From: a virus
Strand: one strand, 5' to 3'
DNA: 59,891 nt
IMG/VR virus record: IMGVR_UViG_3300006111_000001
Under the pieces are notes generated by a model. It ran no database searches and had not been told where the DNA came from. It saw only the letters and a program-made list of their open reading frames with translations. The position numbers and the translations under genes were made by a program. The number at the start of each line of letters is the position of its first letter. Position 1 is the stretch's first letter. Positions 1 to 59,891 of the stretch are shown piece by piece.

Positions 1-120
1 TCAGATTGATATAGGTTGACGTGGAAACGGTCGGAGTCGCCGTCAACGTATCGCCGCTTTTCAAAAACAAATATGGATTTCCATAATTGTCCAATGGCAA
101 ACCCTGCCAAGTTGCAGAAT
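1..120. repeat. Terminal direct repeat, left copy (identical to 59772..59891)
   Basis: The first 120 nt of the window (tcagattgatataggttgacgtgg...gttgcagaat) recur exactly at the last 120 nt. The repeat lies inside the 3' end of a minus-strand ORF, so it is more likely circular-assembly overlap or terminal redundancy than an att site. Confidence 0.9.
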
Positions 121-5566: not shown

Positions 5567-8500
5567 CTATTCGCCATTCCTAGCCCGCATTTTATCTTCC
5601 ATTGCACCTTTGATAATGTCGTTTGGCCCCCCGACACTTTGAGCCGCAATCATATTTGCCGCAGCCGTCCGGCTGGATGAAATCGTTTTGGTGATGGTTT
5701 CCGCCCGGATATTCTTGGGGATTTGCTGCCAGCCCGGATTTTGAACCAAAGCGTTTAATCGCATTTTGGCTAACCGGCCCGCCGTCTGGGCATATTGGTC
5801 ATATTGCTCATCGGTCAAATCCTGCCCTCGGATTGACCGGCGCAATTTCCCAACCCCCAGACCCAAGGCGTTCATTTCCTTAACCACCGAATCATTGGCA
5901 TAACGATCCGCCGTGCCACTTTGCGGGATTGGTTCGCCAAACATATCTCGTTTGGGCAATAGGCCAATTGAGACAAACGGCACCTTGGCCTTGGCGGCAT
6001 CCAATAAGGTCCGCGCTTCGCGTTGATACGGATCGACCGCGTGAGCCACTTGACTCATGCCAACGCTAAACGGCATCCAATTGATGACCATCCCTCGAAT
6101 ATAGCTTTCGCCATATTCTTCCGGATGAAACACCGCATTCAGCATGTCAGACAATCCTTTCATAAAGGTTTCATCCAACACCGCTTTATTAAACCCTTCA
6201 AACGCCGCTTTGGCTAAAACCGTGCCATCTTCACCATCCCAGCCATGCGCGGCTTCGGTCATATTGGCCCCAAACCGCATAAGCATGGCAAACGGCCCCA
6301 GACGGTCATAGGCCACCGACACATCGCCAATGGTAATGTGATTGGGTTTATTGGCCATCAGCCACACACGGCGCTCATTGGGATCAGCAGGGCCATCCCC
6401 GGTCATCAACCCATTTAAGGTCATCATGACGGATGTACCGATTAAAGCCGTGCCGGTGGCGATTTTGCCAAATTGCATGTCTTGAGCAGACCCGCCGTTT
6501 TGCCCGGACAAATTGCCGCGCACGTCCCTATCCAATAAGCCAATGGGCGAGCGTTCAATAAATGCTTCGCGGGTTATTTGGGTGCCAATTTTCATAAACG
6601 GCACAATGATTTTTGCCGCTAGGTTTGAATTGGCCGCAGCTGTTAATTTCCCTGAAAACGAATTGTAATCCGCAGGCGCCATGAATAATTCTTTCATGGC
6701 ATCCGCACTTGCAGCAATCATCATTTCCGGTGTCGGCTTTTGAGTTAATTCCGCAACCCGTCCTTTGAACGCATCCCCGGTCAAACCATCATTCATGGCT
6801 TCCCGATAGGCCAAAGATTGAATGTTTTGCTCATATCGCAGGGATTTAAAAAACGAGTGAATGGCCGCAACCGATTTGGACGGCACATTGATAATTTCGC
6901 CAACCTTGCCCGGAATGGCCCGCGTGTTCATATCGGTAAAATGACCAGATACCTTTTCCCCAGGCAATGCAGGGGAAATGCCGGTTTTAAACGCTTGCGT
7001 TGCCGCCATTAAGCCATCGGATGATCCCTTCATCATGCCGTATAATTGCGCGCCCGCCTCACCTAAATAAACTCGATTTTTGACCTCATAGCCCAAAGCC
7101 TCGCGCGCCGCGCCGACCGCAGACGCCACCGGAATTTCGATCAAAGGACGCGCCAAGGCATTTAACGCATTGCCCACCGAATACCGGGCATGGGTTATCG
7201 GCCCCGAAATCAAAGCATTAACGTAATATTCCAATATGGCGTTTTTGATCGACCCACGGGCGGAATCATTAACAAACTTGGCCACTTGTCCCGGCGTTTG
7301 CAGGTTCATCCCAAATTGCGCTTCTTGCCTTAGTTGTTCCGGTGTCCGGCCAATGGTGCTTTGGAAGAATTGCGCCAACGCTTCGGCATCCGCCGACCCT
7401 TCCAGCTTACGGAATGCTCCCAACGCCCGGCCAGCTTCCGCCGTAATCCCCGCCACTTGCTCTTGAATCATCAAGTGACGTTGCCGCGCTTTGGCATAGG
7501 CCATCACATCGGCATCCGATCCATTGGCCGCTTTTGCCATCAAATCACGCACTTCCGTCGCAGATTGAATTAACAGCTTTCGAGCCGCAAGGATTTGTTC
7601 GGCGTTGAACGCTTCCCCGATCCGGCGCCAATTGAGTTTTGCCGCATTCATGCCCAAAGCATCGGCCAGGTCCAATTGTTCCCCGGCAGAAATCACGCCC
7701 CGCCGTGCGGCCATGAAATCTTCATTATCCGCCGCCGTTTGACGCAAAACTTCTTTTACATCTTCCGGTGTATTGAGATTATCTAACCGGATATTCCCGG
7801 CCTTATCTACAAGGTCTGATTCATCGGTTGCGAACCGCTCATTGGGTCCGGCTGGGTATTCTGTCTTGCTCCCATTAGACCTAGTGCTGCGTCCGCGTGA
7901 TCCGCTGCTTTCTTGAACATCGACCGCACCTCCTCCGGCAGGTCCTGATTGCCCGCCATCATCCGCGCTCTTGATCGGCCCTCTAGCAGATTCTTCCGCC
8001 CGGTATTCATTTTCCAAATCCTCCTCGGTGCGCGGATTGTCGTAATCCGGCACGTTATCACCTTCCCAAGCATCGCCTTTGGCTTCTAAATGAGACTTGG
8101 CCCATTCTTCCGCGTGGCGCAATTCGCGCTCAAAATCCGCTTCCTGAGAATGAATTTCCTTTAATTGTTCTTCGGTTGACATGCGGCTGGCAACTTCATT
8201 CCAGAACTCGCTATGCGACATGCCGTCCGCTTTAATGCCCAATTCCCCGGCAATTCGATCCACTTCGGAATTGTGGTTTAAAGCATCCTGATAGGCTTTA
8301 ACCTTGTCATAATCAAAATCGGAGAATTGATGGTCCCCGTTTACGTCACGGGTTAGCTTTTCCAAAAATTGATTAATCGTGGGACGTTCACCGCCCAATT
8401 CAGGGAAAAACCCGGCTTCTTCCGCCGCTTGCGCCACCCGGTCAATATCTTTGCCCGTTTTGCGCAGCACCCCGCCATTACGCTTGCCACCAAACAATGC

Positions 8501-11047
8501 CGCAATATCGCCCCGATCATTGCCAATTCCGCCATAAGATCGAACAAAATCGGTTAGCGTCGAAGGGCGCGCAGGAACCTTGGAATAAAGCTTTTGCTTT
8601 GAACTAGGGCCAAATTTTAGGTTTGACTCTTGTGGTGGTCCAATGCCTTCAACCTTAGCTTGACCTCCGCCCGCGCCGACCGTTCCAGATTTTTGTATAG
8701 CGCCATTTGTTCCGGTGTCAGGTCCGGACGCATTGACGCCACTGTCAGCACCTTCACTTCGTGCCGGGCTTTCGCCAGGTCCGTTTCCAATTCTTCCAGG
8801 CTGTAATTCATCCGAAATCTCCGAAGCATGTTCATCAGCTACCGCGTGACGCTCATCACGCACCCTATCGCCAACGACCTTTGCTTGGTTCCCCGGCGTG
8901 TGTTCCGCATCGCCTTCATGCAGCGTTGCAAAATCAGCCCCCAAAGCACGATCCGGCGCTATTGTAACCTTTTCCGGGTTGGTTGACAAAAGCCTATCGA
9001 ACACGTCCCGAATATCGTCATTGATAGGCGATTTCAGCCGGGTCACGGTTTCATAAATCTTGGTCAGCCATTGTTTAAATTGATCAAACACCCGCGCTAG
9101 GGTTTGGCTTGGCGCGCGGCCTTCCATCAAATAACGTTCAAACCCGCGCGCAAACTTTTCATGCGCCCGCGTCGGTATGGCCTCATCCTCGCTAACCCCA
9201 AGCCATTTACGCACCGTTGCAGCATCCGCCTTAATTTGATCCGGTGCAGCCTCATGAACGGCATCGGCCATCATTTCTTCTAGAAACTTATGGCCGGTTT
9301 CATGGATAAAAGTTGACGCATCGGCGCCCTTGAACAGTTTGATAATTGTCTTATTTTCCCGGAATTGAACAGAACCCCGCTTGGCTTGCTCATATTCCTT
9401 GGCCGTGATTTCCGGCGCTTGATCCTTTTTTTGCGCCATTTCCCGCACACGTTCGCGCGCGGCTTGGATGACGGCCCCATCCCGGTTAAACAATTCCAAC
9501 GGCGATCCCAGCTTGCCGCCCATGCGCGCCGCCCGTGTTTCATACCTTGCCGCGATTAATTGAGCAGCGGCTTCCGCTTCATCCCTTGGCCGTCCGGCAT
9601 CTTCCAATTGACGCGCGACCCTAGAGGCAATTTGCGCCTTTTGTTGTTCAATCGGCAATTCTGTTTTGGCCGGTGTCTCGTCAGGCTTTACACCCTCCGC
9701 CGCAGGTTCACCCGGTTTAGTCTCGACCGGCTTGGCCGTTTCAGTGACCGTTTCATTTTTCGGTTGCGCAGTTTCCGTTTCACCTTGCTCCCGGCCCTGA
9801 ACGCGCGCCTCATCAACGGCTTGCTCGACTTCCGGTGCGGCTTCTTGCGGCATACGCTCTTGCGCTTCCCGATATGCTTTTGTCACATCCGGCGCTAAAT
9901 CGCGCATTTTATAATCATTTTCTTGCAGCACGCGGCGGATGCGCGCCATGTCCGGCGAATCCAGCTTGGCCGTGCTTTCAATTTCGTCCAATTGATCCCG
10001 CAAATCAGATAACCGGCCCGCTTGACGTTTGGTCAAACGATCTTCGACACCATTAACCTTGGCTAAAATATCGTCAATTTCGCTATTGATTGATTTTACA
10101 TCTTCCCGGTTAGCGTGTGCTTCATCGCGCGTTTCCGACAGCTCATTGAGCCATTTGCGATAGGTATCGCGCCGCGCCACCAAAGCATCGTATTTTTCAA
10201 ACGTATCGGGATCAATTTGACGCGCAATAGAATGAATATCCGGCTGTGCTTCTTGCGTTGTGGCTTGAACCGGCGTTGCCTCCGGTGTCGCTTGAGCCTC
10301 CGCCCCAGCCGCCCCTTGTTCGGCAAGCTGATCTTCTAACGGTTTGACACTGGATTTTAAATCATCCGCCAATGCACCATCGGCCAATGGTTCAGGTTCT
10401 TTCAGTCCAAAATAAACCGCGTCATCCCCGCCAATGACTTTGTTCTTAATGGCATCATTCCAAAACTTTGCCGGTGCCGGATGAAACTTTGACCCAAATG
10501 GAAAGCCCATGGCTTCCATGTCCATAATGCCCGTTACGTCCCGTCCCAGCTTATTCAAGCCAAACACGCCACCCGTTGCATTATTGGCTTCTTCACCCGC
10601 CTGAACGATACCCGCTTGGACGCCGCTATACCCCGCCGCACCTACTCTTAAAGCTGCATTTGCCGCCATGACCGCAGGGCGCATGAACGTATCATTAAAC
10701 CCACCCATGAAACTGGGTTTTTTGGGATCGTTAAACCAACCCAGTTTTTTAAAGAAATCTTCGCTTTCCGGAGACAACGCCATTCCTTCCCAGCCGGTTT
10801 TTACGCCGCCCACAAAAGCATCAGTAATCCTGCCTTCCGGTGTCCCCTTGAACCATTGATTAAATTGGTCAGACGTATTGGCTAAAGGCTGAATAGGCGG
10901 CACTTTTGGCAGACGCGCATCAACACCCGGATAAAATGGCCCAGGTTGAGCAGGCGCATGCTGATCCAGCAATGAATCAACGTCCATTGACTGATTCGGC
11001 GCATGCGCATCCAATAAATCATCGACAGATGACGGCTGATCGGTCAT
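5567..11047 (-). CDS. Giant internal virion/ejection protein (T7 gp16-like position), polyvalent, with HExxH zincin-like motif
   Basis: 1826 aa; last gene of a gp11-gp16-like series. Contains a long acidic, probably coiled region (aa ~220-500) and the motif ...ASTFIHETGHKFLEEMM... (HExxH, codons ~9290..9304). Confidence 0.5.
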   Translation of the reverse strand: MTDQPSSVDDLLDAHAPNQSMDVDSLLDQHAPAQPGPFYPGVDARLPKVPPIQPLANTSDQFNQWFKGTPEGRITDAFVGGVKTGWEGMALSPESEDFFKKLGWFNDPKKPSFMGGFNDTFMRPAVMAANAALRVGAAGYSGVQAGIVQAGEEANNATGGVFGLNKLGRDVTGIMDMEAMGFPFGSKFHPAPAKFWNDAIKNKVIGGDDAVYFGLKEPEPLADGALADDLKSSVKPLEDQLAEQGAAGAEAQATPEATPVQATTQEAQPDIHSIARQIDPDTFEKYDALVARRDTYRKWLNELSETRDEAHANREDVKSINSEIDDILAKVNGVEDRLTKRQAGRLSDLRDQLDEIESTAKLDSPDMARIRRVLQENDYKMRDLAPDVTKAYREAQERMPQEAAPEVEQAVDEARVQGREQGETETAQPKNETVTETAKPVETKPGEPAAEGVKPDETPAKTELPIEQQKAQIASRVARQLEDAGRPRDEAEAAAQLIAARYETRAARMGGKLGSPLELFNRDGAVIQAARERVREMAQKKDQAPEITAKEYEQAKRGSVQFRENKTIIKLFKGADASTFIHETGHKFLEEMMADAVHEAAPDQIKADAATVRKWLGVSEDEAIPTRAHEKFARGFERYLMEGRAPSQTLARVFDQFKQWLTKIYETVTRLKSPINDDIRDVFDRLLSTNPEKVTIAPDRALGADFATLHEGDAEHTPGNQAKVVGDRVRDERHAVADEHASEISDELQPGRIGNGPGESPARSEGADSGVNASGPDTGTNGAIQKSGTVGAGGGQAKVEGIGPPQESNLKFGPSSKQKLYSKVPARPSTLTDFVRSYGGIGNDRGDIAALFGGKRNGGVLRKTGKDIDRVAQAAEEAGFFPELGGERPTINQFLEKLTRDVNGDHQFSDFDYDKVKAYQDALNHNSEVDRIAGELGIKADGMSHSEFWNEVASRMSTEEQLKEIHSQEADFERELRHAEEWAKSHLEAKGDAWEGDNVPDYDNPRTEEDLENEYRAEESARGPIKSADDGGQSGPAGGGAVDVQESSGSRGRSTRSNGSKTEYPAGPNERFATDESDLVDKAGNIRLDNLNTPEDVKEVLRQTAADNEDFMAARRGVISAGEQLDLADALGMNAAKLNWRRIGEAFNAEQILAARKLLIQSATEVRDLMAKAANGSDADVMAYAKARQRHLMIQEQVAGITAEAGRALGAFRKLEGSADAEALAQFFQSTIGRTPEQLRQEAQFGMNLQTPGQVAKFVNDSARGSIKNAILEYYVNALISGPITHARYSVGNALNALARPLIEIPVASAVGAAREALGYEVKNRVYLGEAGAQLYGMMKGSSDGLMAATQAFKTGISPALPGEKVSGHFTDMNTRAIPGKVGEIINVPSKSVAAIHSFFKSLRYEQNIQSLAYREAMNDGLTGDAFKGRVAELTQKPTPEMMIAASADAMKELFMAPADYNSFSGKLTAAANSNLAAKIIVPFMKIGTQITREAFIERSPIGLLDRDVRGNLSGQNGGSAQDMQFGKIATGTALIGTSVMMTLNGLMTGDGPADPNERRVWLMANKPNHITIGDVSVAYDRLGPFAMLMRFGANMTEAAHGWDGEDGTVLAKAAFEGFNKAVLDETFMKGLSDMLNAVFHPEEYGESYIRGMVINWMPFSVGMSQVAHAVDPYQREARTLLDAAKAKVPFVSIGLLPKRDMFGEPIPQSGTADRYANDSVVKEMNALGLGVGKLRRSIRGQDLTDEQYDQYAQTAGRLAKMRLNALVQNPGWQQIPKNIRAETITKTISSSRTAAANMIAAQSVGGPNDIIKGAMEDKMRARNGE

Positions 11048-44179: not shown

Positions 44180-44740
44180 ATGCTATTCACAATCCCTTTC
44201 CGTTCATGGACTGGCAAAGCCGCATTTGAGGTCGAGATCGCCGACGATGTTGAACCGCGCTTTCAAATGCGCGCTGCCTTGTCGGTTGTGATCGGCAAAG
44301 CCAAAGAAAAGGGCGAACGTGCCAATCTCAGCCGTGCCGATCTCAGCGGTGCCGATCTCAGCGGTGCCTATCTCAGCGGTGCCGATCTCAGCGGTGCCTA
44401 TCTCAGCGGTGCCAATCTCAGCGGTGCCGATCTCAGCGGTGCCGATCTCAGCGGTGCCTATCTCAGCGGTGCCGATCTCAGCGGTGCCTATCTCAGCCGT
44501 GCTAAAGGTGCATTTTCGCTTGGAACGCCGGATGGTTGGTCGGCTGTTGCTTGGCTGCGCGACGGTTTCTTATCGATCCGCGTCGGTTGCCGAGATAAGC
44601 GGTTAGATGAAGCCCGCGCATATTGGGCCAATAAAAATGACCGGTGCGAAGTTATGGCGGCGCTGGATTACGCTGAAATAATTGCGCGCCTTCGTGGTTG
44701 GGCCATTGAAGCACCGGCTGAACAAGTGGCAGCGGAGTAA
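44180..44740 (+). CDS. Pentapeptide-repeat protein
   Basis: 186 aa; central run of ~12 consecutive pentapeptides A(D/N/Y)LSG ([25 protein letters not shown]…) flanked by unique N- and C-terminal segments. Confidence 0.75.
44327..44503 (+). repeat. Tandem 15-bp repeat (~11.8 copies) encoding the pentapeptide repeats
   Basis: Near-identical units ctcagcggtgccgat / ctcagcggtgcctat / ctcagcggtgccaat in head-to-tail array. Confidence 0.9.
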
Positions 44741-50023: not shown

Positions 50024-50341
50024 ATGAACTTCCCGCGCCCAATCCCAGCCAACAGGCAAGATGAAATTGAAATTCATCGGCCTTGGGCACGGCTGCCAAA
50101 TTGGCCGCGATTGCTACCAGAACTTTTGGCGGCTGCCTATGTCGGCGGTGTCTCGATCGGTACTTTCCGAACGGAGGTCGAACAAGGCATTTGGCCCCCG
50201 CCAATCCGGCGCGGACGGCGCATATTTTGGGATTTGGGCGACCTTGATAGGGCAGTTGACCGGCTAAAGGGCATTGTATCTGATACTCTTCCTGATCAAC
50301 CTTCGGGCCTCGGGGACATAAATTGGGACAAATCCGCTTGA
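50024..50341 (+). CDS. Excisionase / AlpA-like HTH protein
   Basis: 105 aa; …LLAAAYVGGVSIGTFRTEVEQGIWPPPIRRGRRIFWDLGDLDRAVD… resembles Xis/AlpA DNA-binding domains; immediately upstream of integrase. Confidence 0.5.
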   Translation: MNFPRPIPANRQDEIEIHRPWARLPNWPRLLPELLAAAYVGGVSIGTFRTEVEQGIWPPPIRRGRRIFWDLGDLDRAVDRLKGIVSDTLPDQPSGLGDINWDKSA

Positions 50342-51375
50342 GCCTCAGCGTGCCACGGCTCCATATCGTCGGGGACCGCTTTTATTGGCGCCCCACGGCC
50401 CCTATCCGTGCTTTGGGGTTTTCTTACGAGGCTTTGGGCAAAGACCCCATGAAAGCCGCTGCAAGGGCCAGGGAGCTTAATGAACAGGTCGAGCGGGCCA
50501 AACTAGGGTTGGATGCCAGGACCAAGCGCGGCGACACGGTGGCAGCCCTGATCGACGCCTATCAGTCCTGCCCCCGGTATAAGAGCCGGGCGGAAACCAC
50601 CCGAAAGGGCTATGACCATTTCCTAAAACACATCCGCGCGCTTGCCGGGCATGTCATTGTGGCGACCATTGACCGGCCCGGCATGTTGCAGACCTATGAG
50701 AAGCTAATCGCCGCCAGGGGCCTTTATACCGCCAATGCGTATATGAAGGTCTGGCAGATATTGCTTAAGCACGCCTATGACCTCGGATGGCGCAAAGATA
50801 ACCCCGCCGCCGGGCTTGGGCTTCAAACGCCGCCGCCGCGAGAGCAAGTCTGGACGGTCGATCAAATCCTTGCATTTTGTGATGCCGCCGTGGAAATGGG
50901 CAGGCCGTCCATGCGTCTGGCGATGCTATTGGCCTATGACCTTGGGCAACGCCCTGGCGACTATATCAAGCTGACTTGGACCACTTACACCGGGTCCGGG
51001 TTTATGATTAAGCAGTCCAAGACCAAAACCCGCGTCAATGCGCCGTTCGAAAACCCGTTTCTTTGGGCTGAAATCGACGCCATGCCGCGCAAACACTCGC
51101 ATGTCTTGATTTGTGAGGGGACCAAAGCCCCCTATAAGGCTGATTATTTCCGGCACCTATGCACCAAGATCAGGCGCGCGGCCAAACTGCCGGAACAGCT
51201 TCAATTCCGCGATCTGCGCCGGACAGCCGCCACGGAAATTGGCAATGCCGGGGCAACAGATGATCAGTTACGGGCGCTCCAAGGCTGGAAAACCCGGAAT
51301 CAGGCGGCGACTTATGTGGTGGTATCGTCAGCCGGTGCCGAAGGCGCTCAAGCGAAACGGAGGGCGAACAGGTAA
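50323..51375 (+). CDS. int: Tyrosine integrase
   Basis: 350 aa; N-terminal SAM-like and C-terminal catalytic patterns (…GQRPGDYIKLTW…, …FRDLRRTAATEIGNAG…LQGWKTRNQAATYV…). Confidence 0.8.
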   Translation: MGQIRLSLSVPRLHIVGDRFYWRPTAPIRALGFSYEALGKDPMKAAARARELNEQVERAKLGLDARTKRGDTVAALIDAYQSCPRYKSRAETTRKGYDHFLKHIRALAGHVIVATIDRPGMLQTYEKLIAARGLYTANAYMKVWQILLKHAYDLGWRKDNPAAGLGLQTPPPREQVWTVDQILAFCDAAVEMGRPSMRLAMLLAYDLGQRPGDYIKLTWTTYTGSGFMIKQSKTKTRVNAPFENPFLWAEIDAMPRKHSHVLICEGTKAPYKADYFRHLCTKIRRAAKLPEQLQFRDLRRTAATEIGNAGATDDQLRALQGWKTRNQAATYVVVSSAGAEGAQAKRRANR

Positions 51376-51453
51376 AGGATCAGGTGTAATTTTCGTTACA
51401 CTTTGGGGGTTTTTCAGGGGCTAAGGATTTTCCCTAACCCCTTGAAAAATCTT

Positions 51454-51500
51454 GGTGAGCGCGATGGGATTCGAACCCATGACCCTTTGATTAAAAGTAT
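51454..51500 (-). other. tRNA 3'-end fragment (T-arm, acceptor 3' strand and CCA): probable attP core
   Basis: Minus-strand reading …ATGGG-TTCGAAT-CCCAT-CGCGCTC-A-CCA gives a canonical T stem-loop, a 7-nt acceptor 3' strand, discriminator and CCA; no matching 5' acceptor strand (GAGCGCG) upstream, so not a complete tRNA gene. Confidence 0.55.
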
Positions 51501-51614
51501 CATGCACCCCTAGCAAATCCGCCATTTTTTACACTTGTTCTGCGTCTGTTCATGTATGATATATCAATGACTTACGGGCTAAGTGTAACGGCAGTTTGAT
51601 GGAAAAGTGATAAA

Positions 51615-51983
51615 ATGGCAGGAGATGTTTCAGTCAATTTGGCGCCACAAACATCAAAACTGGAAAATTCAACCAAAACCAGTTTTGTTTATTTGGTCCG
51701 CAGCGGGCAACATTTAAAAATTGGCAGAACGAAAAATGTTCAAGCCAGATTTTTGGCTTTGCAAAATGCCACACCCGCCAAATTACGTTTAATCCGGTAT
51801 TTTGAAGTGCCCGCCGAAGAAGTGATCGGGATAGAATATGAAGCCATGGTAACTTTAAAATCCCAGGGCTATCACGTTCGAGGCGAGTGGTTTTCGGCGC
51901 CCACCGATTTAGCTTTAAGGGCTATCTATCAAGCAATTGAAGCCGCAAAGCCTAATGGCAAGCCAATTGTGACTCCGGCCTAG
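51615..51983 (+). CDS. T5orf172 (GIY-YIG-like) domain protein
   Basis: 122 aa; …SFVYLVRSGQHLKIGRTKNVQARFLALQNATPAKLRLI…GEWFSAP… follows the T5orf172 pattern. Confidence 0.6.
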   Translation: MAGDVSVNLAPQTSKLENSTKTSFVYLVRSGQHLKIGRTKNVQARFLALQNATPAKLRLIRYFEVPAEEVIGIEYEAMVTLKSQGYHVRGEWFSAPTDLALRAIYQAIEAAKPNGKPIVTPA

Positions 51984-53404: not shown

Positions 53405-54031
53405 CTAATTTGCTTTGCGCTTTTTGCAATCGCGCAATCGTGTGTAAATAATGCTTTCGCTGACTTTCAGCTTGGCCGCGATTTGCTTGATCGTCAGCCC
53501 TTCCTTGCGGAGGGCTTTAATCTGTTTCAGCTTTTCAGCGGTTAGTTTCTTGGGCGCACCTTGCCAGCCGCCCTCACGTTCTTTAAACGCCTGAATACCG
53601 GCTTTAGTCCGTTCAATGGTTAGCTGGCGTTCAAATTCCGCGACAATGGCGAATAGGCCAAGGATTAGCTTGCCGGTTGCTGTGCTGAAATCGAATTGCT
53701 CTGTCAGGGATTTAAAAGACGCGCCCGCATCGGAAATCTGGTCTAGCCGTGCGTATAGTTCACGCATATTGCGGGCCAGCCGATCTAGACGCCAGACCAC
53801 AAGGGTATCGCCCTCGCGCAAATCTTTCATGGCGTGTTCAAGTGCCGGTCTGGACTTAGACGCCGCCGATTTTTTTTCGATGTGGAGATTGTCGGGCAAC
53901 ACCCCGGCACGCTTAAGCGCGTCCACTTGAAGGTCAAGTTTCTGATCTTCTGTGAACACGCGGGCATACCCGATTAATCGGGTCGCGGGCAGGTCTGGCA
54001 ATTTTGTGCGTCGTTTCAAAACCATGACCAC
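53405..54031 (-). CDS. Serine recombinase (Hin/Gin invertase-resolvase family) with Phe in place of the catalytic Ser
   Basis: 208 aa; strong family match (…DTLVVWRLDRLARNMRELYARLDQISDAGASFKSLTEQFDFSTATGKLILGLFAIVAEFERQLTIERTKAG… plus C-terminal HTH), but the nucleophile motif reads GYARVFTEDQ (codon ttc) instead of GYARVSTxxQ. Confidence 0.75.
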   Translation of the reverse strand: MVMVLKRRTKLPDLPATRLIGYARVFTEDQKLDLQVDALKRAGVLPDNLHIEKKSAASKSRPALEHAMKDLREGDTLVVWRLDRLARNMRELYARLDQISDAGASFKSLTEQFDFSTATGKLILGLFAIVAEFERQLTIERTKAGIQAFKEREGGWQGAPKKLTAEKLKQIKALRKEGLTIKQIAAKLKVSESIIYTRLRDCKKRKAN

Positions 54032-59771: not shown

Positions 59772-59891
59772 TCAGATTGATATAGGTTGACGTGGAAACG
59801 GTCGGAGTCGCCGTCAACGTATCGCCGCTTTTCAAAAACAAATATGGATTTCCATAATTGTCCAATGGCAAACCCTGCCAAGTTGCAGAAT
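59772..59891. repeat. Terminal direct repeat, right copy (identical to 1..120)
   Basis: Exact 120-nt match to window start; implies a unit genome of ~59771 bp. Confidence 0.9.

What the first reader, a model, noticed from the sequence alone, without database searches (positions are those of the whole stretch)
51376..51614. tRNA 3'-end fragment beside the integrase: likely attP core defining the host integration site
Immediately downstream of the integrase, on the opposite strand, is a sequence encoding a tRNA T-arm, acceptor 3' strand and CCA, without the 5' half. This is the usual configuration for phages that integrate into a tRNA or tmRNA gene and reconstitute its 3' end. A GC-rich imperfect hairpin (51405..51445) lies between the integrase and the fragment.
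Basis: partly seen in the sequence, partly recalled or inferred. Interest (0 to 1): 0.5.

Follow-up and report, generated by a model that had tools for sequence, protein, structure and literature searches.

The report
Phage attP targeting a tRNA-Lys gene
This is the attachment site of a complete temperate phage: it carries an exact copy of the last 46 bases of a lysine tRNA gene so that integrating into that gene in an uncultured freshwater alphaproteobacterium leaves the tRNA intact, which is a well-known, ordinary arrangement.

Summary
On the minus strand, 51498..51453 is positions 31-76 of a tRNA-Lys(UUU) gene: anticodon loop, variable region, T arm, acceptor 3' strand and CCA. The 5' half is absent. 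It lies 78 nt after the stop codon of a lambda-type tyrosine integrase (50323/50350..51375).

The window is a circularly closed phage genome with a 120-nt terminal overlap, so this is attP, not a prophage end.

- **Empty site:** a metagenome contig (L008) has a complete tRNA-Lys(UUU) and no integrase. It matches the phage over 65/65 bp: the 46 tRNA bases plus 19 bases past CCA.
- **Occupied sites:** two contigs of the same host lineage (L012, L015) carry a 53-54% identical integrase directly downstream of that tRNA.
- **Family pattern:** more distant relatives show the same layout at tRNA-Lys(CUU).

attP spans about 51376..51592. It holds four copies of AAGTGTAA-like candidate arm sites and an IHF-consensus site.

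The host is an uncultured alphaproteobacterium; its GyrA is at most 70% identical to named taxa. No lysogen of this phage itself was found. Crossover in the anticodon loop is inferred, not shown.

This is a new member of a known kind, of low interest.

The parts
50024..50341 (+). Candidate excisionase or directionality factor: a 105-aa ORF directly upstream of the integrase and overlapping its start.
   Evidence: A homologous small ORF sits in the same position in L006, L012, L015, L020 and L013. It hits PHROG 25900 'transcriptional regulator' at E 8e-7. There is no Pfam hit even at E 10. The single-sequence structure model is unusable (pLDDT 47). The role is inferred from position only.
50323..51375 (+). 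Lambda-type, three-domain tyrosine integrase. The longest ORF starts at TTG 50323; the public gene call of 341 aa starts at GTG 50350.
   Evidence: Pfam PF00589, E 1.4e-13, and PHROG 1 integrase, E 3.5e-29. A profile of 38 homologs hits full-length lambda Int (5j0n, 1z1b) at E 1e-23. The AlphaFold model (pLDDT 93.7) has an N-terminal three-strand-plus-helix domain. Its best PDB matches are full-length lambda Int over 342-345 columns. The catalytic residues R, K, R and Y are invariant or nearly so across homologs.
51376..51592 (.). Whole attP region: from the integrase stop codon to the point where homology with the sister phage ends.
   Evidence: In the window/L006 alignment the intergenic region stays alignable up to about 51592 and is then lost, where the downstream genes differ. 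The integrase gene itself is 78% identical at the nucleotide level.
51382..51403 (.). Integrase-proximal arm: an inverted pair of the 8-mer, GGTGTAAT (51383-51390, +, 7/8 match) and AAGTGTAA (51396-51403, -). These are candidate arm-type Int sites and also form a small hairpin.
   Evidence: The pair is conserved in L006 (10706 +, 10720 -). Analogous inverted repeats with a different motif (GTGGCAAA) lie at the same place after the integrase stop in L015, L012 and L021.
51406..51453 (.). GC-rich imperfect hairpin. Its right arm lies inside the host-identical block and its left arm is phage-specific.
   Evidence: Folding. It is not conserved as a structure in L006. The scan does not call it a terminator, and A-runs rather than T-runs follow the stem on both strands.
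51434..51498 (-). Common core: a 65-bp block identical to the host attB.
   Evidence: BLAST gives 100% over 65 nt between L008 1382-1446 and window 51498-51434. See also the alignments.
51453..51498 (-). tRNA-Lys(UUU) positions 31-76, including CCA.
   Evidence: The block is identical in the sister phage L006 and in four further contigs of the same phage.
51491..51497 (-). Anticodon loop CTTTTAA: the proposed 7-bp overlap (strand-exchange) region. This is inferred.
   Evidence: The identity block starts at position 31 in window, L006 and L020. In L020 the copied anticodon is CTT, matching a Lys(CUU) target. The Islander paper states that crossover sites fall at the anticodon loop, the T loop or the T/acceptor junction (PMC4383910).
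51434..51452 (-). Post-CCA block AGATTTTTCAAGGGGTTAG, shared with the host flank. It contains a near-consensus IHF-like site, TTTCAAGGGGTTA (51447..51435).
   Evidence: Similar blocks follow CCA in L006, L020, L012/L015 and L021. L008/L015 host homology also ends at this point. The IHF reading rests on the E. coli consensus recalled from my own knowledge.
51529..51536 (-). Candidate arm-type site AAGTGTAA, on the integrase-distal arm near the core.
   Evidence: 4 matches in 59.9 kb against 0.79 expected, three of them within 51396-51588. Conserved in L006 at 10853 (-).
51562..51574 (+). Perfect IHF-consensus match TATCAATGACTTA. It overlaps the palindrome TGATATATCA (51557-51566).
   Evidence: 7 matches in the window against 3.2 expected, so the count is not significant on its own. 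The site is conserved in L006 as AATCAATGACTTA.
51581..51588 (+). Candidate arm-type site AAGTGTAA at the distal end of attP.
   Evidence: Conserved in L006 at 10905 (+). Phage-phage homology ends a few bases after it.

Best explanation
The region 51376..51592 is the attP site of a complete temperate phage. The unique genome is 59,771 bp and was assembled as a circle.

**The site.** The core is a 65-bp block identical to the host attB. It consists of positions 31-76 of a tRNA-Lys(UUU) gene plus the 19 bases that follow CCA.

**The enzyme.** The adjacent lambda-type tyrosine integrase has an arm-binding N domain, a core-binding domain and a catalytic domain.

**Proposed mechanism (inferred).**
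1. The integrase is brought to the core by binding the AAGTGTAA-like repeats on both arms. DNA bending at the IHF-like sites probably assists.
2. It exchanges strands with the host tRNA-Lys gene, most likely across the 7-bp anticodon loop.
3. After integration the host keeps tRNA positions 1-30. The phage supplies positions 31-76 and a new 3' flank, so the gene stays functional.
4. The integrase gene then lies convergent, just downstream of the rebuilt tRNA (attL). The displaced host 3' half sits at the far end of the prophage (attR).

**The host** is an uncultured alphaproteobacterium with the gene order gyrA-coaD-ppi-queA-methyltransferase-tRNA-Lys.

**Shown versus inferred.** Shown: the fragment, its identity to an empty host site, the integrase type, the circular phage form, and relatives inserted at this gene. 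Inferred: the exact crossover position, the arm-site and IHF-site functions, and the excisionase role of the upstream ORF.
For: **Fragment and missing 5' half:**

**Exact tRNA-Lys(ttt) matches:** (L001; L008).

**The empty site.** L008 and the window are identical over 65/65 bp, including 19 non-tRNA bases. L008 has no integrase. The tRNA is followed by a His-rich transporter and a PPK2-like gene.

**Occupied sites in the same host lineage.**
- L015: tRNA-Lys at 7387-7462 (+) and integrase at 7529-8581 (-), 53% identical to the window integrase.
- L012: the same integrase, with the same queA and methyltransferase neighbours.
- L008/L015 homology (84%) stops 20 nt after CCA.

**Family-wide pattern.**
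- L006 (integrase 83% identical) keeps the 46-nt tRNA fragment and the first 11 post-CCA bases exactly (57 nt in all), then has one mismatch in the rest of the block, while its flanks drift.
- L020 (47% identical) carries the equivalent 46-nt fragment of tRNA-Lys(CUU).
- L021 and L022 (40% identical) sit beside a complete tRNA-Lys(ctt).

**Free circular phage.** The window has a 120-nt terminal repeat, virion genes and a CI-like repressor. All contigs carrying this integrase are at most 60,083 bp and are in the attP state.

**Integrase type:**

**Arm motifs:**

**Published principle.** The integrating element restores the split tRNA gene, and crossover subsites include the anticodon loop (PMC4383910).
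Against: **No lysogen of this phage was found.**
- The metagenome scan used a pattern that would match both attB and attL. It returned only the empty site L008.
- The viral-contig scan returned only attP forms.
- No attR was seen for any relative, because the contigs end first.

**The host link is not watertight.**
- The phage GC content (51%) is lower than that of the host contigs (56-57%).
- The tRNA part of the core also matches a Xanthobacteraceae MAG, so the tRNA part alone does not fix the host. Only the 19-nt flank does.

**Several functional assignments are untested.**
- The crossover position is untested. The T arm is also a perfect inverted repeat inside the block.
- The IHF consensus count in the whole window is not significantly above chance.
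- The hairpin is not conserved and is not a canonical terminator.
Confidence: 0.9

Rival explanations
1. The attP and the tRNA-Lys target are as described, but strand exchange happens in the T loop or in the post-CCA block rather than in the anticodon loop.
For: ATGGG-TTCGAAT-CCCAT is a perfect inverted repeat around 7 bases and is present in both attP and attB. The anticodon stem, by contrast, is not symmetric in attP, where positions 28-30 are mismatched. The right edge of the identity block (+19 or +20 after CCA) is the same for two different elements. The T-loop and junction subsites are common (1836 of 3919 islands, PMC4383910).
Against: The block starts at position 31 in three attP sites. 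The copied anticodon follows the target: TTT in window and L006, CTT in L020. That is only expected if the phage copy ends up in the tRNA or must match during exchange. A crossover past CCA would leave no reason to keep 46 tRNA bases exactly in phages whose integrase genes are only 78% identical.
Confidence: 0.22
2. The fragment is the decayed remnant of a phage-encoded tRNA gene and has nothing to do with integration.
For: Many phages carry tRNA genes. Fragments are often mis-annotated as tRNA genes (PMC9897764, title and abstract).
Against: - It is identical to a host gene over 65 bp, including 19 non-tRNA bases.
- It is kept exactly in a diverged sister phage while its flanks drift.
- It always abuts the integrase.
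- Relatives are inserted at that very gene.
Confidence: 0.02
3. The window is an integrated prophage and the fragment is the displaced tRNA piece at attR, not attP.
For: A 3' tRNA fragment without its 5' half is also what marks the far end of a prophage.
Against: - The first and last 120 nt of the window are identical.
- No host genes were seen.
- In a prophage the integrase would lie beside the complete tRNA, and no complete tRNA exists in the window.
- Phage genes continue on both sides of the site, including in four other contigs.
Confidence: 0.02
4. Integration is carried out by the serine recombinase at 53405..54031, at a different site.
For: A resolvase/invertase-family gene lies 2 kb away (Pfam PF00239, E 6e-38).
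Against: At 208 aa it is a small invertase/resolvase type (PHROG 125, DNA invertase). It lacks the large C-terminal domain of serine integrases. The tyrosine integrase, not this gene, is the one found next to tRNA-Lys in relatives.
Confidence: 0.02

Closest known systems
Phage lambda Int/attP system (heterobivalent tyrosine integrase with arm sites, IHF sites and Xis)
   Same: The three-domain integrase fold matches full-length lambda Int. attP is about 220 bp, with a repeated short motif on both sides of the core, an IHF-consensus site, and a small ORF just upstream of the integrase gene.
   Different: Sequence identity to lambda Int is only about 19-21%. The target is a tRNA gene rather than an intergenic site. 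The common core is 65 bp rather than lambda's 15 bp (lambda figure from my own knowledge). The first His of the HxxR motif is Arg (RDLRRT). Binding of Int, IHF and the small ORF product is untested.
Integrative elements at tRNA genes with anticodon-centred attP (Williams 2002 classes; Islander database subsite A)
   Same: The element carries the 3' part of the tRNA gene, starting at the anticodon stem-loop, and regenerates the gene. The integrase lies next to the regenerated tRNA. 2083 of 3919 Islander islands are of this type (PMC4383910).
   Different: The identity extends 19 nt beyond CCA into the non-tRNA flank. attP copies also keep tRNA positions 24-27 while positions 28-30 are free. The crossover has not been mapped. 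The Williams 2002 paper itself could not be read here.
Integrated relatives in metagenome contigs L012/L015 (tRNA-Lys UUU) and L021/L022 (tRNA-Lys CUU)
   Same: They belong to the same integrase family (53-54% and 40% identity) and target the same gene or its isoacceptor. Orientation is the same, and an inverted repeat follows the integrase stop codon.
   Different: The arm motif is different (GTGGCAAA instead of AAGTGTAA). The cargo also differs: L015 carries a LuxI/LuxR pair and a ParB-like gene, and L012 has two extra ORFs between the integrase and the tRNA.

Membership tests
Lambda-type heterobivalent tyrosine integrase system | Tyrosine recombinase catalytic domain with the R-K-H-R-H/W-Y residues | tested here: met
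   PF00589, E 1.4e-13. R, K, R and Y are invariant or nearly invariant in 38 homologs. The first His of HxxR is Arg in this protein, and Trp takes the second His/Trp position (sequence).
Lambda-type heterobivalent tyrosine integrase system | Separate N-terminal arm-binding domain | tested here: met
   The model (pLDDT 93.7) has strands 4-7, 10-13 and 27-30 plus helix 33-56. Foldseek aligns 342-345 columns to full-length lambda Int (1z1b, 1z1g, 5j0n). The sequence profile match starts at lambda Int residue 36. This shows the fold only; DNA binding was not tested.
Lambda-type heterobivalent tyrosine integrase system | Arm-type binding sites on both sides of the core, distinct from the core sequence | tested here: inconclusive
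   Three exact AAGTGTAA copies and one 7/8 copy lie within 51383-51588, against 0.79 expected in the whole window. All four are conserved in L006. A different motif takes the same layout in L020, L015 and L021. Protein binding cannot be tested here.
Lambda-type heterobivalent tyrosine integrase system | Accessory bending-protein sites and an excisionase | tested here: inconclusive
   One perfect IHF-consensus site lies in attP and is conserved in L006, but the window-wide count is not above chance. The upstream ORF is conserved, has no Pfam hit and gave an unusable model.
tRNA-gene-targeting integrative element, anticodon-loop subsite | attP contains the 3' part of the target tRNA gene, identical to the host copy | tested here: met
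   65/65 bp identity with L008. ARAGORN calls the L008 gene tRNA-Lys(ttt).
tRNA-gene-targeting integrative element, anticodon-loop subsite | Integration leaves an intact tRNA next to the integrase, with a displaced 3' fragment at the other end | tested here: inconclusive
   An intact tRNA beside the integrase is seen for relatives (L015, L012, L021, L022). It is not seen for this phage. No far end (attR) was captured, and a second core copy is absent from the loci held.
tRNA-gene-targeting integrative element, anticodon-loop subsite | The identity block begins at the anticodon stem-loop | tested here: met
   The block starts at position 31 in window, L006 and L020.
tRNA-gene-targeting integrative element, anticodon-loop subsite | Strand exchange occurs within the 7-base anticodon loop | not testable with these tools
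   This needs cleavage mapping or marked substrates.
Phage-encoded tRNA gene | Complete cloverleaf with acceptor 5' strand and D arm | tested here: not met
   ARAGORN finds 0 genes in the window. The sequence 5' of position 31 does not match the tRNA except for GCAT at positions 24-27.
tmRNA (ssrA) target site | Match to the tmRNA 3' end rather than to a tRNA | tested here: not met
   The Rfam tmRNA hit scores only 14.8 bits against a gathering score of 47, and covers just the T arm and acceptor. The fragment includes a Lys anticodon loop and variable region identical to tRNA-Lys.

The most novel reading that the evidence does not exclude
**Reading.** The 19-nt stretch past CCA is not a passive leftover but a working part of the recombination site, shared by phage and host.

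**Support.**
- It looks like an IHF-type bending site (TTTCAAGGGGTTA).
- A similar block follows CCA in every family member examined (window, L006, L020, L012/L015, L021).
- The empty host site L008 carries it too. Next to it are a GGTTAGC tandem duplication and a GCGGCAAAG motif that resembles the arm motif of the L015-type element.

**What would follow.** Either attB for this integrase family is unusually complex and carries an accessory-protein site. Or the host flank is a relic of an earlier element of the family, which now pre-adapts the site for its relatives.

**A related point.** attP copies keep tRNA positions 24-27 but not 28-30. This may define an unusual split core-type site.
Probability: 0.15. 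Interest if true: 0.35.

Novelty: new member of a known kind. Interest (0 to 1): 0.2.

Why it matters
- **Host link.** The site connects a complete, previously uncatalogued 59.8-kb temperate phage to a specific chromosomal locus of an uncultured freshwater alphaproteobacterium that has no named close relative. The phage has no DNA match among 50,697 deposited phage records.
- **A defined pair of sites.** It yields an attP (about 220 bp) and an attB (65 bp) for a small integrase family that targets tRNA-Lys genes. These could serve for host assignment in metagenomes or as a candidate integration tool.
- **Biology.** The arrangement itself is textbook.

Tried and rejected
- **DNA search of deposited phages.** A distant-mode search with the integrase/att region found no match.
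- **Exact look-up of the 350-aa integrase ORF.** Nothing found, because public gene calls start at GTG 50350. The 341-aa form then worked.
- **Genome-collection scan with the 42-nt core.** It gave one hit, a Xanthobacteraceae MAG. I rejected it as the host because identity stops right after CCA and its GC content is 61%.
- **Metagenome scan for core plus phage-type flank, hoping for attL.** It returned only the empty site.
- **Viral-contig scans.** They returned only copies of the same phage in the attP state.
- **Naming the host.** The GyrA search and cluster look-up gave no name closer than 70% identity.
- **Hairpin as terminator.** Not supported.
- **Structure of the upstream small ORF.**
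  - The single-sequence model was too poor to use.
  - Pfam gave nothing even at E 10.
- **Inverted repeats around the serine invertase.** Nothing convincing.
- **Williams 2002.** The paper is not held in the library.
- **Integrase relative P0014 in an NCBI assembly.** No DNA was available.

Full report
**1. What is in the sequence**

A 350-aa ORF ends at 51375 on the plus strand. Starting 78 nt downstream, on the minus strand, 51498..51453 reads ACTTTTAATCAAAGGGTCATGGGTTCGAATCCCATCGCGCTCACCA. Laid on a tRNA this gives:

- the last base of the anticodon stem 5' strand
- the loop CTTTTAA (anticodon UUU, lysine)
- the stem 3' strand TCAAA
- the variable region GGGTC
- the T arm ATGGG/TTCGAAT/CCCAT
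- the acceptor 3' strand CGCGCTC
- the discriminator A, then CCA

ARAGORN finds no complete tRNA or tmRNA in the 59,891 bases. The 25-nt 3' end occurs only once even with 3 mismatches allowed. Rfam gives only a sub-threshold tmRNA/tRNA-clan hit over the T arm and acceptor (14.8 bits).

Two hairpins lie between the integrase stop and the fragment: 51382-51403 and the GC-rich 51406-51453.

**2. The window is a free, complete temperate phage**

- The first and last 120 nt are identical. This is the usual mark of a circular assembly, and the unique length is 59,771 bp.
- It encodes a major head protein, a head-tail adaptor/portal-like protein, tail proteins, an internal virion protein, a CI-like repressor, a helicase, SSB and a methyltransferase.
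- No host genes were seen.
- All public contigs with this integrase are at most 60,083 bp, and those read show the same phage genes on both sides of the site.

The site is therefore attP, not a prophage end. The region has no DNA match among 50,697 deposited phage records.

**3. The target gene and the empty host site**

An exact scan of one genome per species with 42 nt of the fragment found a single hit: a complete tRNA-Lys(ttt) in a Xanthobacteraceae MAG. That identity stops right after CCA and the DNA is 61% GC. It shows what the fragment is, but not who the host is.

A metagenome scan used the anticodon stem 5' strand, the fragment and the 11 bases that follow CCA in the phage. It found one contig, L008. 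L008 carries:

- the end of queA
- a methyltransferase
- a complete tRNA-Lys(ttt) at 1352-1427
- a His-rich transporter and a PPK2-like gene
- no integrase

BLAST gives 65/65 identity between L008 1382-1446 and window 51498-51434. That is tRNA positions 31-76 plus 19 non-tRNA bases (AGATTTTTCAAGGGGTTAG). Identity in the non-tRNA flank cannot come from tRNA conservation. L008 is best read as the unoccupied attB of this phage or of a very close relative.

**4. Occupied sites**

The integrase has 51 detectable homologs. The contexts examined were as follows.

| Locus | Integrase identity to window | State | What is seen |
|---|---|---|---|
| L006/L007 | 83% | attP, sister phage | The 46-nt tRNA fragment and the first 11 post-CCA bases (57 nt) are identical to the window; one mismatch follows in the rest of the block; flanks drift (integrase gene 78% at nucleotide level) |
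| L012 | 54% | attL | Integrase downstream of a complete tRNA-Lys(ttt) in a host with gene order gyrA-coaD-ppi-queA-methyltransferase-tRNA, matching the queA-methyltransferase-tRNA part seen on L008 |
| L015 | 53% | attL | tRNA at 7387-7462 (+), integrase at 7529-8581 (-), convergent, 66 nt apart |
| L020 | 47% | attP | Carries the equivalent 46 nt of a tRNA-Lys(CUU), with no complete tRNA |
| L021/L022 | 40% | attL | Sits beside a complete tRNA-Lys(ctt) next to fumarase and sspB |

L008 is 84% identical to L012 and L015 over 1447 nt, and that homology ends 20 nt after CCA. From there the element begins in L012/L015 and the transporter region continues in L008.

The integrase parts of L012 and L015 are 98% identical, while their host parts are 87% identical. 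The same element therefore sits in two related hosts.

This integrase family thus targets tRNA-Lys genes in the orientation predicted for the window phage. What I did not find is a lysogen of the window phage itself, or any attR.

**5. Host**

GyrA from L012 has unnamed metagenomic relatives at 98% and 85% identity. The best named hits, at 69-70%, are Parvibaculum, Micropepsaceae and various Hyphomicrobiales. The host is an uncultured alphaproteobacterium without a close named relative.

A relative at 85% GyrA identity (L016) has a different tRNA-Lys 3' half and no element. Host contigs are 56-57% GC and the phage 51%. This modest gap is not unusual for phages (my own knowledge).

**6. The integrase**

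- Pfam PF00589 matches.
- A profile of 38 homologs matches full-length lambda Int at E 1e-23.
- The AlphaFold model (pLDDT 93.7) has an N-terminal three-stranded sheet plus a long helix.
- Its best PDB matches are full-length lambda Int chains over 342-345 columns.
- The catalytic Arg, Lys, Arg and Tyr are conserved. The first His of HxxR is Arg here.

This is the three-domain, arm-binding type of integrase.

**7. Anatomy of attP**

Homology between the window and L006 continues from the integrase stop to about 51592 and then ends. This sets the outer limit of attP at about 217 bp.

- **Arm-type repeats.** AAGTGTAA occurs 4 times in the window (0.79 expected). Three copies lie at 51396-51403 (-), 51529-51536 (-) and 51581-51588 (+). 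A 7/8 copy lies at 51383-51390 (+). In L006 all four copies in 20.7 kb are in the same places. In L020, L015, L012 and L021 a different motif (GTGGCA/GTGGCAAA) takes the same layout. This is what one expects of arm-type sites that co-vary with the integrase N domain.
- **IHF-like sites.** A perfect match to the E. coli IHF consensus WATCAANNNNTTR (recalled from my own knowledge) lies at 51562-51574 and is kept in L006. The window-wide count is not above chance, so this is a lead only. The post-CCA block contains a one-off match (TTTCAAGGGGTTA), and similar blocks follow CCA in all relatives.
- **GC-rich hairpin.** It is not conserved in L006. A-runs, not T-runs, follow the stem on both strands, and the scan does not call it a terminator. 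I assign it no function.
- **Upstream small ORF.** The ORF at 50024-50341 is conserved in position and sequence across the family. Its excisionase role is inferred only.

**8. Where the strands cross**

This is inference. The block begins at position 31 in three attP sites. The copied anticodon follows the target: TTT in two, CTT in L020. In the lysogens of relatives the anticodon stem is intact, so exchange must be 3' of position 30.

The published pattern is that crossover sites fall at the anticodon loop, the T loop or the T/acceptor junction, with the anticodon type the most common (PMC4383910). I therefore put the overlap at the 7-base anticodon loop (51497..51491), with roughly 65-75% confidence. 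The T loop or the post-CCA block is the alternative.

**9. Verdict**

This is a well-known arrangement, so the finding is a new member of a known kind and of low general interest.

Three small oddities were noted but not resolved:

- the 19-nt identity beyond CCA
- the retention of tRNA positions 24-27 but not 28-30 in attP copies
- motifs in the L008 flank that resemble the arm motif of another element

Noticed in passing
window 1-120 and 59772-59891: An exact 120-nt direct repeat at the two ends of the window. It indicates a circularly closed assembly or a terminal repeat; the unique genome is 59,771 bp.
   Followed up: yes
window 44180-44740 (repeat 44289-44528): Eleven or more tandem 15-nt units (GTGCCGATCTCAGCG-like) inside an ORF. 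This encodes a pentapeptide-repeat protein in the early region of the phage.
   Followed up: no
window 53405-54031 (-): A small serine recombinase of the DNA-invertase type (PF00239, E 6e-38; PHROG 125) lies 2 kb from attP. No convincing flanking inverted repeats that would mark an invertible segment were found.
   Followed up: partly
window 51615-51983 (+): A MUG113/T5orf172-domain ORF directly abuts the outer end of attP. The sister phage L006 has unrelated genes there, so the gene content next to attP is variable.
   Followed up: partly
window 51499-51505 (-); L006 about 10823-10829; L020 about 7159-7165: In three attP sites the bases matching tRNA positions 24-27 (GCAT, or GCAG for Lys-CUU) are kept. 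Positions 28-30 differ from the tRNA and from each other (GAT, CAC, GAC). This may outline a core-type integrase site, or may be chance.
   Followed up: partly
L008 1428-1475: The host flank after CCA has a tandem GGTTAGC-a-GGTTAGC duplication. It is followed by GCGGCAAAG, which resembles the GTGGCAAA/GCGGCAAAG arm-type motif of the L012/L015 element, in opposite orientation. This may be a relic of an earlier element at this site.
   Followed up: no
L012 1343-2839 versus L015 7463-7528: The same integrase (98% nucleotide identity) sits in two hosts that are 87% identical. In L012 a 1.5-kb insert lies between the integrase and the tRNA. It carries two clear ORFs (262 aa with a weak Proteasome-family hit, and 161 aa) plus a 42-aa call, and it splits the GTGGCAAA repeats.
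   Followed up: partly
L015 11214-12761: The integrated element beside tRNA-Lys carries an autoinducer synthase and a LuxR-type receptor pair, and also a ParB-like gene.
   Followed up: no
L013 7048-8223 and 17779-19089: A more distant relative (integrase 41% identical) is a phage contig that carries an IS605 OrfB/TnpB (Cas12f-like) gene and an ISL3 transposase. It has no tRNA-like T arm after its integrase.
   Followed up: no
L016 16534-16609: A host relative (GyrA 85% identical) has a tRNA-Lys(ttt) with a different anticodon stem, T arm and acceptor stem, and no element. The exact core occurs in only 1 of 185,579 species genomes, which suggests a narrow host range.
   Followed up: partly
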